DNA of 64,000 nt. Origin: Escherichia phage RB16. Below the pieces are notes generated by a model. The model was not told the DNA's origin. It did not search any database and worked only from the letters and a program-made list of their open reading frames with translations. Made by a program: the position numbers and the translations under genes. The stretch lies in the sequence record NC_014467.1, one strand, 5' to 3'. Positions 59,085 through 63,781 of the stretch are shown in pieces; positions within the stretch are counted from its first letter, which is position 1, and each line of letters begins with the position of its first letter.

Positions 59085-59831
59085 ATGCAAAACTGGGATG
59101 AAAGTTTATTCGCTCAGTTGTCAACGGGGGAGGGAGTCGATCGCAACTTAAAGGATCAAGTCACTAACCCGTATGTAAACTGGTACAAATATAACCCAAC
59201 ACAACAGCTACATGATTCACTTACAGCAGAATCAATCCAGATGAAATCACCTGATATGTATTATGTCAGACGTGAATTTGTGAATATAGATAAAATTCTG
59301 GGTGAAGACCGAGAGTCTAAATTCACGAAATCGTGGAAGATCGCTGCATATATTGAATCATATGCTAACTATGAAGGACAGCGGGACTTCTTTAGAAAAT
59401 TCGGGTTGAGTTCTAACGACGAAATGACGCTGGTACTAAATCCGCGTTTATTTGCACATCAAACTGATGGTGGTATTCCGGTGCTGGGGGATTTGGTTTA
59501 TTTCCCAATGGATAACAGCTTGTTTGAAATTACATGGGTGGAAGCAGATCCGTTCTATCAGTTCGGTGATCGTCCTCAACGTAAAATCAACCTGGCTAAA
59601 TTCATCTACACGGGCGAAGAATTGGCTCCTGAATTGCAGCGAAACGAAGGAATCCATATCGAACCTGATGCAGAACTGGATCTTGAACCTATTCGAAATC
59701 TTGACGGGCTGGCAGATATTAACATTGAACAGTACGAAGAAGACAAAGAATTTGAAAGAGAAGGTGACGAGTTTATCGAATCTTTTGATGTTGTCAACGG
59801 TCGCGGTTCTCCGTTTGCAAGTCTACCATAA
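59085..59831 (+). CDS. 14: neck protein gp14
   Basis: 248 aa; T4 synteny. Confidence 0.85.
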   Translation: MQNWDESLFAQLSTGEGVDRNLKDQVTNPYVNWYKYNPTQQLHDSLTAESIQMKSPDMYYVRREFVNIDKILGEDRESKFTKSWKIAAYIESYANYEGQRDFFRKFGLSSNDEMTLVLNPRLFAHQTDGGIPVLGDLVYFPMDNSLFEITWVEADPFYQFGDRPQRKINLAKFIYTGEELAPELQRNEGIHIEPDAELDLEPIRNLDGLADINIEQYEEDKEFEREGDEFIESFDVVNGRGSPFASLP

Positions 59832-59835
59832 ATAA
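59828..59835 (+). promoter_or_regulatory. late-promoter-like box CATAAATAA
   Basis: ATAAATAA overlapping gp14 stop, upstream of hairpin pair. Confidence 0.35.
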
Positions 59836-59842
59836 GTTAAAT

Positions 59843-59880
59843 GGGTATAGGCGGAAGTCTATACCCTCTTCAAAGAGGGG
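59843..59880 (+). promoter_or_regulatory. two alternative hairpins, the second sequestering the SD of the downstream T5orf172-like gene
   Basis: GGGTATAG-GCGGAAGT-CTATACCC (59843-59866) and CCCTCTT-CAA-AGAGGG (59864-59880); SD AGAGGGG lies in the 3' arm. Confidence 0.5.
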
Positions 59881-59888
59881 TTTATGAT

Positions 59889-60614
59889 ATGGTTGCAAAA
59901 ATCTCTATAGAACAACGAGAACATCAATTAAAAGAACGTTGTGCGGAATTAGAACTATCTTTTGATGGATGGGTAGACCAATCAGCGATCACAAAATATT
60001 CAAAGTTTTATGTTGTTTGCAGTAAAGGACATAGAACAGAAAAACAGATCAAACCATTTGTCAACAAAAGTCGTCCAAACGGATGTTATTTGTGTTCTCC
60101 TAAGATGAAAATATCAAAGGAAAACAGAATCGAGGAAATCAAAACTCTTGCAGATTCAATTGGATATACATTCATAGATTTCGTTGGGGTGTATAAAGAT
60201 GCTCACACAAAAATATCAATGGTTTGCGATAAAGGCCATAATTGGGATGTAAGTATAGTTGCTTTTCTCAATCAAGGTCATCGCTGTAAAAAATGCGCAA
60301 CGTCTGGGTTCAATACGAACAAACCAGCATACGTATACGTACAATCACTATCTGGAAAATTTCTGAAATTTGGGATAACCAACAGAACACCAAAGAAAAG
60401 AATGTGTGCGCAATCAAATAAATCCGTTTATAAACACGAACTGGTTTATCAAAAATTATTCGATAAAGGTATTGATGCAATGAGTATTGAACAGAAGATC
60501 AAACAATCTCTTGTTTGTGGCGTAGTTGATAAATCAGATATGATGGATGGATATACAGAAACAACAGATATATCCAATTACGATAAACTGTTGAATATTA
60601 TAGAAGGAGTATAA
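59889..60614 (+). CDS. T5orf172/GIY-YIG-like domain protein with duplicated zinc-finger modules (free-standing homing-endonuclease-like)
   Basis: two CxKGH...CxxC modules then YVYVQSLSGKFLKFGITNRTPKKR (T5orf172-type GxxKxGxT...R); inserted between genes 14 and 15. Confidence 0.5.
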   Translation: MVAKISIEQREHQLKERCAELELSFDGWVDQSAITKYSKFYVVCSKGHRTEKQIKPFVNKSRPNGCYLCSPKMKISKENRIEEIKTLADSIGYTFIDFVGVYKDAHTKISMVCDKGHNWDVSIVAFLNQGHRCKKCATSGFNTNKPAYVYVQSLSGKFLKFGITNRTPKKRMCAQSNKSVYKHELVYQKLFDKGIDAMSIEQKIKQSLVCGVVDKSDMMDGYTETTDISNYDKLLNIIEGV

Positions 60615-60616
60615 AA

Positions 60617-61434
60617 TTGTTTGGATACTGGTATAATAGTTCGCTGCGTAACTACATTGTTCTTATGGGACAATTGTTTAACCATGTTCAGGTTAAAAGA
60701 GTACGCGGCGATCAAGAAAAATTTATTAAGGTTCCAATTACCTACGCATCGAAAGAGAAATTTCTTGCTTCCATGAATAAACTCAACTATGCGTATAGTC
60801 AGGAAAACGTAGCAAAGACGGAAACCATTTTACCGCGAATGAACCTATCACTGGTCGATCTGCAATATAACGCAATTCGTAAAACCAGCATAGCGGTCAA
60901 CCAAAAAATGACGCAATTGCAATCACCCCGCAAGACGATCACACAGTTTAACCCTGTGCCTTATCGTTTAATTTTTGAACTGGGTGTGTATACGCGATAT
61001 GAAGACGACATGTTTCAGATCGCAGAACAGATTTTACCGTATTTTCAACCACATTTCAACTGCAAGATTACCGAACTGCATAAGAACGAAATCACAGTTG
61101 ACCGAGACATCAAAATCAGTCTCCAGTCGGTTGCACCAGATACAACGTTTGAGGGCGAAGCATCACAGCGCCGACATGTTGAATGGTCTTTCATGTTCGA
61201 ATTGCAGGGTTATCTGTACCCGCCTGTTACTGACGTTAAGGGCGAAATCAGAACAGTATACACGGATTTCTTTGCCAATATGAACCCATTGGATAAAGAT
61301 AACTTTGAATCCGTTGATAGTCAAGCCGATCCGGTAGATCTGCCTTTGCAGGATTACACGGGCGAAGAATATATTCAGACGTATTCGCACGATAAGCCGA
61401 TCCCGTCTGGTGATGAACCTCCTAAGCCGAGGGA

Positions 61435-61438
<4 letters not shown>
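60617..61438 (+). CDS. 15: tail sheath stabiliser / connector protein gp15
   Basis: MFGYWYNSSLRNY... parallels T4 gp15 MFGYFYNSSFRRY...; apparent TTG start at 60617 after AGGAGT. Confidence 0.9.

Positions 61439-63781
<2,343 letters not shown>

What the first reader, a model, noticed from the sequence alone, without database searches (positions are those of the whole stretch)
60617..60619. Gene 15 apparently initiates at TTG
The reading frame encoding MFGYWYNSS... (matching the T4 gp15 N-terminus) begins at a TTG preceded by AGGAGT at appropriate spacing; no in-frame ATG is available upstream.
Basis: seen in the sequence. Interest (0 to 1): 0.2.

Follow-up and report, generated by a model that had tools for sequence, protein, structure and literature searches.

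The report
Gene 15 starts at TTG
The tail-terminator gene (gene 15) of this T4-like phage does begin with the rarer start codon TTG; the TTG came from a one-base insertion into an ancestral ATG, sits two bases after a mobile endonuclease gene, travels with that gene between phages, and is already annotated in public relatives.

Summary
Confirmed and ordinary. TTG lies at 60617-60619. AAGGAG (60604-60609) sits 7 nt upstream, an in-frame TAA lies 11 codons upstream (60584-60586), and no ATG or GTG lies between. The product aligns with T4 gp15 from residue 1.

The window is a Pseudotevenvirus (RB43/Lw1 group). The same TTG occurs in seven independently sequenced isolates and one metagenomic contig, so it is not a sequencing error. 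Lw1, leE and Cronuts already annotate it as the start. One record carrying the same TTG (phi1_146010) calls the internal ATG at codon 17 instead, probably wrongly.

The TTG is derived. Relatives with nothing between genes 14 and 15 have ...AGGAAAATAAAATG. Two divergent phages with a 73%-identical copy of the upstream endonuclease gene (59889-60614) have ...GAAGGAATATAAAATG. The window clade has ...GAAGGAGTATAAAATTG, which is +1 T plus an A-to-G change that lengthens the Shine-Dalgarno match.

The endonuclease gene plus the first ~105 nt of gene 15 form one near-identical block inside otherwise diverged flanks, which is a co-conversion signature. A second, unrelated mobE-like gene at the same site is linked to an ATT at the gene-15 start.

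Whether the weak start codons are tolerated passengers or adaptive is unresolved.

The parts
59085..59831 (+). Gene 14 (neck protein, head closure).
   Evidence: Pfam T4_neck-protein at 8.5e-86. Annotated as gp14 in Lw1, GAP161 and RB43.
59828..59834 (+). ATAAATA motif overlapping the gene 14 stop codon. It may be a T4-type late promoter for the transcript that carries the endonuclease gene and gene 15. This is an inference.
   Evidence: A (T/A)TAAATA motif sits at the same place after gene 14 in distant T4-like loci L013, L014, L017 and L019. The motif is not enriched in the window overall.
59843..59866 (+). Conserved RNA hairpin GGGTATAGGCGGAAGTCTATACCC downstream of gene 14. It marks the left edge of the insertion site.
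   Evidence: Folding gives z = -2.7 to -3.5. The hairpin is present in relatives with and without the endonuclease gene and is unique in the window.
59867..59880 (+). Small hairpin overlapping the endonuclease gene's own Shine-Dalgarno sequence (GAGGGG, 59875-59880). The leader is shared with the mobE-type cassette.
   Evidence: Sequestering the ribosome-binding site in a hairpin is a known way of limiting translation of phage homing endonucleases (PMC3014915, PMC2988022).
59889..60614 (+). Free-standing endonuclease gene of 241 aa: two CapR-type zinc-ribbon repeats plus a C-terminal GIY-YIG-like nuclease domain. Its last codons contain the gene-15 Shine-Dalgarno sequence. Its TAA stop is at 60612-60614.
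60604..60609 (+). Shine-Dalgarno sequence AAGGAG for gene 15, 7 nt before the TTG.
   Evidence: Divergent phages with the same endonuclease gene have AAGGAA here.
60617..60619 (+). TTG initiation codon of gene 15.
60617..61438 (+). Gene 15 (tail sheath stabilizer / tail terminator, 273 aa).
   Evidence: Pfam T4-gp15_tss at 1.7e-97. PDB 3j2m/4hud at 8e-85 over residues 1-272.
60617..60722 (+). The first ~105 nt of gene 15 are identical to those of leE and phi1_146010 (one difference from Cronuts, at 60625), while the rest of gene 15 differs at 10-20 sites per 100 nt. This is the co-conversion tract carried with the endonuclease gene.
   Evidence: The first difference from leE is at 60723.
60665..60667 (+). 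Internal in-frame ATG (codon 17). Some automatic annotations use it as the start; it is probably not the start.
   Evidence: No Shine-Dalgarno match was found for it. Codon 17 is Leu in L014-L016, L018 and L030. Annotated as the start in phi1_146010, YI837, Taquito and Fraggle.

Best explanation
Gene 15 is translated from UUG 60617, read as initiator methionine by fMet-tRNA. Initiation is helped by a 6-nt Shine-Dalgarno match (AAGGAG) 7 nt upstream in an unstructured region.

The UUG is a derived allele. An ancestral ...AAGGAATATAAAATG gained one T (AAAATG to AAAATTG), and an A-to-G change lengthened the Shine-Dalgarno match. Both changes lie in the last 15 nt of a free-standing GIY-YIG-like endonuclease gene cassette inserted between genes 14 and 15.

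Because the start codon is 2 nt from the end of that mobile gene, it lies inside the block that is copied together with the gene when it spreads between co-infecting phages. The UUG allele is therefore inherited with the endonuclease gene.

The weaker codon is probably tolerated for three reasons (inference). gp15 is needed only as one hexamer per virion. The Shine-Dalgarno match is strong. Ribosomes finishing the endonuclease ORF 2 nt upstream may add some re-initiation.

Shown here: the codon, its conservation, its derived polarity, and its linkage to the mosaic block. Inferred: the efficiency of initiation, the tolerance, the hitch-hiking, and any coupling.
For: - Anatomy and homology.
- Identical TTG in Lw1, UPEC03, leE, JC03, Cronuts, phi1_146010 and phi1_146015, and in a Logan contig whose endonuclease is only 93% identical.
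- ATG at the homologous position in relatives without the endonuclease gene, including GAP161, Margaery, the L009 contig (174,436 bp) and T4-like loci.
- ATG in two divergent phages that carry a 73%-identical copy of the endonuclease gene at the same site (L030, L031). This gives the polarity ATG to TTG by a +1 T insertion.
- 14 synonymous versus 1 amino-acid codon variants in codons 2-16 of non-ATG alleles.
- No stable RNA structure over the initiation region (z = -0.12 and -0.79).
- Window versus leE, Cronuts and phi1_146010: 0-2 differences per 100 nt from 59900 to 60722, against 4-9 in gene 14 and 10-20 beyond 60723. leE is GAP161-like beyond about nt 105 of gene 15.
- UUG initiates at 10-100% of AUG in E. 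coli reporters (bioRxiv 10.1101/063800).
- gp15 forms a hexamer, and its R11 contacts gp14 (PMC12929629).
- Free-standing homing endonuclease genes spread with co-conversion of flanking sequence (PMC2988022).
Against: - There is no direct protein evidence, such as an N-terminal peptide or a toeprint, for this phage or its relatives.
- The hitch-hiking idea rests on a single inferred mutation event and one clearly resolved mosaic boundary.
- Purifying selection on codons 2-16 could partly reflect frequent recombination with ATG-type phages.
- A GTG start occurs in another T4-like lineage without an endonuclease gene (L018), so non-ATG starts of gene 15 do not need a mobile gene.
Confidence: 0.85

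Rival explanations
1. gp15 starts at the internal ATG (codon 17, 60665), giving a 257-aa protein. The TTG and the 16 codons after it would be untranslated leader.
For: Automatic annotations of phi1_146010, YI837, Taquito and Fraggle_ER53 call this start. RB43 is annotated from even further downstream.
Against: - No Shine-Dalgarno match was found for this ATG.
- Codons 2-16 are under purifying selection: 14 synonymous versus 1 amino-acid variant.
- The 16 residues are among the best conserved with T4 gp15 and include R11, a gp14 contact.
- Codon 17 is Leu in several orthologues.
- A well-spaced strong Shine-Dalgarno match precedes the TTG.
Confidence: 0.05
2. The TTG is an artefact, either a sequencing or assembly error (an extra T) or a defective gene in this isolate.
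For: The allele differs from the ancestral ATG by one inserted T next to another T. That is the kind of error homopolymer-sensitive platforms make, and Lw1 was sequenced by 454 (PMC3861415).
Against: - The same sequence appears in seven isolates from different laboratories, countries and hosts, and in one independent run assembly.
- All of these are plaque-forming phages.
- The reading frame downstream is intact and conserved.
Confidence: 0.01
3. The weak start codon is functional rather than a passenger. One version: gene 15 translation depends on ribosomes terminating at the endonuclease stop codon 2 nt upstream (termination-reinitiation), which ties expression of an essential gene to the mobile gene or sets a low gp15 dose. 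Another version: the change at the ATG protects the carrier genome from cleavage by its own endonuclease.
For: - Stop and start are 2 nt apart here. They are 3 nt apart in the independent mobE/ATT allele and 1 nt apart in the ancestral ATG form.
- Two different endonuclease genes at this site are each linked to a non-ATG start (TTG, ATT), while nearly all relatives lacking them have ATG.
- In Fraggle_ER53 the decayed mobE keeps an in-frame mini-ORF ending at the same TAG.
- Stop/start proximity is taken as a hint of translational coupling for T4 mobE (PMC2988022).
Against: - Gene 15 has its own strong Shine-Dalgarno match, so coupling is not required.
- The endonuclease gene's own ribosome-binding site lies in a hairpin, which suggests few ribosomes arrive from upstream.
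- phi1_146002 keeps the ATT although the mobE frame is destroyed.
- Divergent phages carry this endonuclease gene with a normal ATG, so neither immunity nor coupling needs the TTG.
- Only two independent events support the association, and a GTG start exists without any endonuclease gene (L018).
Confidence: 0.12

Closest known systems
Annotated gp15 of Escherichia phage Lw1 (YP_008060728.1, Lw1_gp207) and of Cronobacter phages leE and Cronuts
   Same: Same gene, same TTG start, same upstream endonuclease gene. The region is 97.9% identical to Lw1 and 93.8-93.9% to leE and Cronuts.
   Different: The window is not identical to any record in the phage collection. Differences near the start are synonymous.
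T4 gene 15 (tail terminator / sheath stabilizer; PDB 4hud, 3j2m)
   Same: Orthologous protein aligned from residue 1 to 272, in the same position between gene 14 and gene 16.
   Different: In T4-like loci L019-L021, gene 15 starts with ATG after AGGAG, and nothing lies between genes 14 and 15.
Free-standing homing endonuclease genes of T-even phages (seg and mob genes; replacement of mobC/mobE by segH/hef)
   Same: - The gene is intergenic between conserved essential genes.
- Its distribution among close relatives is patchy.
- Two unrelated endonuclease genes occupy the same site in different phages.
- A sharply bounded near-identical block extends into the flanking gene, as for co-conversion.
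- A hairpin covers the endonuclease gene's ribosome-binding site (PMC2988022).
   Different: - Nuclease activity and cleavage site are untested.
- Here the cassette supplies the ribosome-binding site and abuts the start codon of the downstream essential gene.
Bacterial genes with near-cognate start codons (about 3% UUG in E. coli; AUU in infC and pcnB)
   Same: A UUG with a good Shine-Dalgarno match used as the start, as for about 3% of E. coli genes (10.1101/063800).
   Different: No autoregulatory role is known or suggested, unlike infC. The related ATT allele in RB43-type phages would be far rarer if it is really used.

Membership tests
UUG-initiated protein-coding gene | An in-frame UUG at the position homologous to the initiator Met of orthologues. 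| tested here: met
   orthologues have ATG exactly here, and the alignment with T4 gp15 starts at residue 1.
UUG-initiated protein-coding gene | A Shine-Dalgarno sequence 5-9 nt upstream, with no in-frame ATG or GTG between the preceding stop and the UUG. | tested here: met
   AAGGAG at 60604-60609 with a 7-nt spacer. TAA at 60584-60586. The ten codons between contain no start codon.
UUG-initiated protein-coding gene | The codons between the UUG and the next ATG evolve as coding sequence. | tested here: met
   14 synonymous versus 1 amino-acid codon variants in codons 2-16 across ten TTG or ATT alleles.
UUG-initiated protein-coding gene | The protein N-terminus is observed as (f)Met encoded by the UUG. 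| not testable with these tools
   No proteomic or toeprint data were available or found.
T4 gp15 tail sheath stabilizer (Pfam PF16724) | A significant match to the family profile and to solved gp15, in the gene order 13-14-15-16-17. | tested here: met
   1.7e-97 over residues 4-258. PDB 3j2m at 8e-85. Neighbouring gp14, gp16 and gp17 confirmed.
Free-standing homing endonuclease gene | Encodes a nuclease domain of a homing-endonuclease class (GIY-YIG, HNH, and so on). | tested here: inconclusive
Free-standing homing endonuclease gene | Lies between conserved genes and is present or absent among close relatives. | tested here: met
   Present in 7 public isolates out of 61 matching records (duplicates included). 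Absent in GAP161, Margaery and many others. Replaced by a mobE-like gene in about 13.
Free-standing homing endonuclease gene | Flanking sequence is co-converted with the gene, giving a mosaic block. | tested here: met
   A near-identical block from 59900 to 60722 inside diverged flanks. leE is GAP161-like beyond about nt 105 of gene 15.
Free-standing homing endonuclease gene | The enzyme cleaves the allele that lacks the gene, and the gene is over-inherited in mixed infection. | not testable with these tools
   Needs enzyme assays and phage crosses.
Translationally coupled gene pair (termination-reinitiation) | The upstream stop lies within a few nucleotides of the downstream start. | tested here: met
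   TAA at 60612-60614 and TTG at 60617.
Translationally coupled gene pair (termination-reinitiation) | Downstream translation depends on upstream translation, with no independent ribosome entry. | not testable with these tools
   An accessible strong Shine-Dalgarno match argues that independent entry is possible. Dependence needs reporter experiments.

The most novel reading that the evidence does not exclude
Occupation of the gene 14/15 junction by selfish endonuclease genes repeatedly degrades the start codon of the essential gene 15. ATG became TTG next to the GIY-YIG-like gene and ATT next to the mobE-like gene. These weak-start alleles persist and spread because they sit inside the block copied during homing. 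That would be a natural case of a mobile gene dragging a sub-optimal, possibly compensated, translation signal of an essential host gene through a phage population. Alternatively, the weak codon makes gene 15 expression depend on the mobile gene.
Probability: 0.25. Interest if true: 0.45.

Novelty: already known. Interest (0 to 1): 0.2.

Why it matters
- **Annotation:** public records of the same allele disagree. The protein is given as 273 aa from TTG in Lw1, leE and Cronuts, and as 257 aa from an internal ATG in phi1_146010. The related ATT allele is truncated in RB43 (246 aa), YI837, Taquito and Fraggle. The evidence here supports the full-length protein.
- **Biology:** the locus is a compact example of how a mobile endonuclease gene cassette can carry the ribosome-binding site and abut the start codon of the essential gene downstream, so a change in that start codon spreads with the cassette.
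- **Scale:** by itself a UUG start is routine, at about 3% of E. coli genes.

Tried and rejected
- **Public collection scans:** exact-pattern scans of IMG/VR and JGI metagenome contigs for the junction with or without the extra T (GAAGGARTATAAAATN{0,1}GTTYGG) returned only Lw1 plus unrelated phages that share the motif by chance. They gave no further TTG alleles and no ATG revertants.
- **RNA structure:** none was found that might hide or present the TTG.
- **Late promoter:** TATAAATA has no copy near the gene, and the relaxed ATAAATA is not enriched in the window. The promoter assignment stays an inference.
- **Promoter and terminator scan:** nothing decisive.
- **Endonuclease family:** sequence searches against PDB and NCBIfam found nothing.
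- **Literature:** the T4 genome review (PMC150520) is not held. The Lw1 genome paper does not mention the start codon.
- **ATA 60611 as the start:** rejected, because it lies only 1 nt after the Shine-Dalgarno match.
- **Endonuclease-gp15 fusion by frameshift:** rejected. The two ORFs are in different frames, gene 15's frame has a stop at 60584, and ancestral forms have an independent ATG.
- **TTG created by the insertion junction itself:** rejected after finding carriers of the endonuclease gene that have ATG.

Full report
**What is at the coordinates**

The window reads ...ATAGAAGGAGTATAAAATTGTTTGGATACTGG around the site.

- TTG occupies 60617-60619 and opens a 273-codon ORF ending at 61438.
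- AAGGAG (60604-60609) lies 7 nt upstream.
- Reading the same frame backwards gives ten sense codons with no ATG, GTG or TTG, then TAA at 60584-60586.
- The next in-frame ATG is codon 17 (60665), and no Shine-Dalgarno match was found for it.
- The product matches Pfam T4-gp15_tss at 1.7e-97.
- It aligns with solved T4 gp15 from residue 1: MFGYWYNSSLRNY versus MFGYFYNSSFRRY.

**Identity of the phage and the neighbourhood**

The region is 97.9% identical to Escherichia phage Lw1 and about 94% to Cronobacter phages leE, Cronuts and JC03 and to Klebsiella phages phi1_146010 and phi1_146015. All are Pseudotevenvirus of the RB43 group.

The gene order is 13, 14, an extra ORF, 15, 16, 17. The extra ORF is best read as 59889-60614 (241 aa), as in the Lw1 annotation.

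- It has two CapR-type zinc-ribbon repeats and belongs to PHROG 681 'endonuclease'.
- It has few homologues. These share an invariant Y, KFGITN, R and GYTET pattern.

**Is the TTG real?**

Seven public isolates carry the same ...AAGGAGTATAAAATTGTTTGG: Lw1, UPEC03, leE, JC03, Cronuts, phi1_146010 and phi1_146015. They come from different laboratories and hosts.

A Logan assembly (ERR12726225) whose endonuclease is only 93% identical carries it too. A sequencing error is therefore excluded.

**Is the TTG the start?**

- Orthologues have ATG at exactly this position.
- Among ten alleles with a non-ATG codon here, codons 2-16 show 14 synonymous codon variants and one conservative Y/F change.
- Codon 17 is Leu in several orthologues.
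- The initiation region is unstructured.
- In T4, R11 of gp15 forms a salt bridge with gp14 (PMC12929629). A Met17 start would delete it.

Public annotation disagrees. Lw1, leE and Cronuts call the TTG and give 273 aa. phi1_146010, which has the same sequence, is called from codon 17 and given 257 aa.

**Origin of the TTG**

| Group | Sequence at the gene-15 start |
|---|---|
| Nothing between genes 14 and 15 (GAP161, Margaery, the L009 contig of 174,436 bp, others) | hairpin-AACAACCCATACAGGAAAATAAA-ATG |
| Two divergent metagenomic phages with a 73%-identical endonuclease gene at the same site (L030, L031) | ...GAAGGAATATAAA-ATG, with the endonuclease stop 1 nt before the ATG |
| Window clade | ...GAAGGAGTATAAAA-TTG |

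The window clade therefore differs from the divergent carriers by one added T (AAAATG to AAAATTG) and one A-to-G change. The A-to-G change turns AAGGAA into AAGGAG and the last endonuclease residue from Ile into Val.

The TTG is thus a secondary mutation in one lineage of the cassette. It is not a by-product of the insertion itself.

**Linkage to a mobile block**

Against leE, Cronuts and phi1_146010, the window shows the following differences:

| Region | Differences per 100 nt |
|---|---|
| 59900-60722 | 0-2 |
| Gene 14 | 4-9 |
| Gene 15 beyond 60723 | 10-20 |

leE is window-like for the first ~105 nt of gene 15 and GAP161-like after that. This is the pattern expected when a free-standing homing endonuclease gene moves with co-conversion of flanking sequence (PMC2988022). 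The TTG, 2 nt from the endonuclease stop, lies inside the block.

**A second allele at the same site (outside the window)**

A mobE-like HNH/NUMOD3 endonuclease gene, or deletion remnants of it, occupies the same site in these phages:

- RB43, YI837 and Taquito;
- HMGUkp1, PF-CE2 and Dev_CS701;
- KLB21, KLB25, KKP_3664, CYPEBC003 and EC-F2;
- Fraggle_ER53 and phi1_146002;
- one metagenomic phage (L011).

Every one of these that was read directly (RB43, YI837, Taquito, Fraggle_ER53, phi1_146002 and L011) has GGGGGATTAG-AAA-ATT-TTTGG, that is, ATT where others have ATG. The remaining records match the same junction at 93-100% identity but were not read base by base.

GenBank truncates gp15 in these records. 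RB43 is annotated from codon 29, and the Pharokka-style records from codon 17.

Both cassettes share the leader TCTTCRAAGAGGATTTTATGATAT. Taquito and leE have the same gene 15 apart from the start codon. Together these suggest that one endonuclease gene replaced the other in place.

**Mechanism**

*Shown:* a UUG with a strong, well-spaced Shine-Dalgarno match; translation of the following codons; the derived polarity; linkage to the mobile block.

*Inferred:*

- UUG works at 10-100% of AUG in E. coli reporters (10.1101/063800).
- gp15 is needed only as a hexamer (PMC12929629), so a weaker start is probably tolerated.
- The A-to-G change in the Shine-Dalgarno match may compensate.
- The allele may persist because it is copied with the endonuclease gene.

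A functional role is possible. It could be coupling to the endonuclease ORF that ends 2 nt upstream, dose setting, or self-immunity. It is not favoured, for four reasons:

- Carriers with a normal ATG exist.
- Gene 15 has its own accessible Shine-Dalgarno match.
- The endonuclease gene's ribosome-binding site sits in a hairpin.
- phi1_146002 keeps the ATT although the mobE frame is destroyed.

A GTG start in a lineage without an endonuclease gene (L018) shows that gene 15 tolerates non-ATG starts in general.

**Verdict**

The finding is correct, ordinary and already annotated in close relatives. The added value is:

- evidence for the full-length start where public records disagree;
- the one-base origin of the TTG;
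- its linkage to a mobile endonuclease gene.

Interest is low to modest.

Noticed in passing
L006/L045 (RB43, NC_007023 125877-125885), L004 1297-1305 (YI837), L027, L028, L029, L011: Phages with a mobE-like HNH/NUMOD3 endonuclease gene between genes 14 and 15 have ATT at the gene-15 start position (TAG AAA ATT TTT GGA). The ATT is in the same frame as mobE and 3 nt after its stop. GenBank records truncate gp15 there (RB43 246 aa; others 257 aa). Codons 2-16 are still conserved, so AUU, a very rare start, may be used.
   Followed up: partly
window 59841-59891; L004 640-700: The GIY-YIG-like and mobE-like cassettes share the same left junction and leader (TCTTCRAAGAGGATTTTATGATAT) just after a conserved hairpin. 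Taquito (mobE) and leE (GIY-like) have identical gene-15 sequences apart from the start codon. This points to replacement of one endonuclease gene by the other in place.
   Followed up: partly
window 59841-59888: The mechanical ORF list, and the phi1_146010 annotation, start the endonuclease ORF at ATG 59841, which lies inside the conserved intergenic hairpin. The likelier start is ATG 59889, preceded by GAGGGG. That gives 241 aa, as in Lw1.
   Followed up: yes
L028 285-458 (Fraggle_ER53); L029 285-523 (phi1_146002): These are decayed mobE remnants. Fraggle keeps an in-frame 57-aa mini-ORF that still ends at the TAG next to the ATT. phi1_146002 is frameshifted, leaving only a 24-aa ORF that ends there.
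   Followed up: partly
L004 1272-1287, L006, L011 (last ~30 nt of mobE): A small hairpin (CTGGAC-NN-GTCCAG) just before the GGGGGA Shine-Dalgarno sequence keeps its stem while its loop varies. In L011 it is replaced by a different stem (GCTGCT...AGCAGC). Its predicted stability is not significant.
   Followed up: no
L018 2001 (IMGVR_UViG_3300045988_066415): A more distant T4-like phage starts gene 15 with GTG after AGGAG. It has a terminator-like hairpin upstream and no endonuclease gene.
   Followed up: no
window 61435-61443: Gene 16 has two candidate ATGs. One is at 61435, overlapping the gene-15 stop as ATGA. The other is at 61441, the start used in the Lw1 annotation.
   Followed up: no
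L030 2493-2503: In the divergent metagenomic phage L030, the endonuclease gene itself appears to start with GTG (GTG GTA GCA AAA).
   Followed up: no
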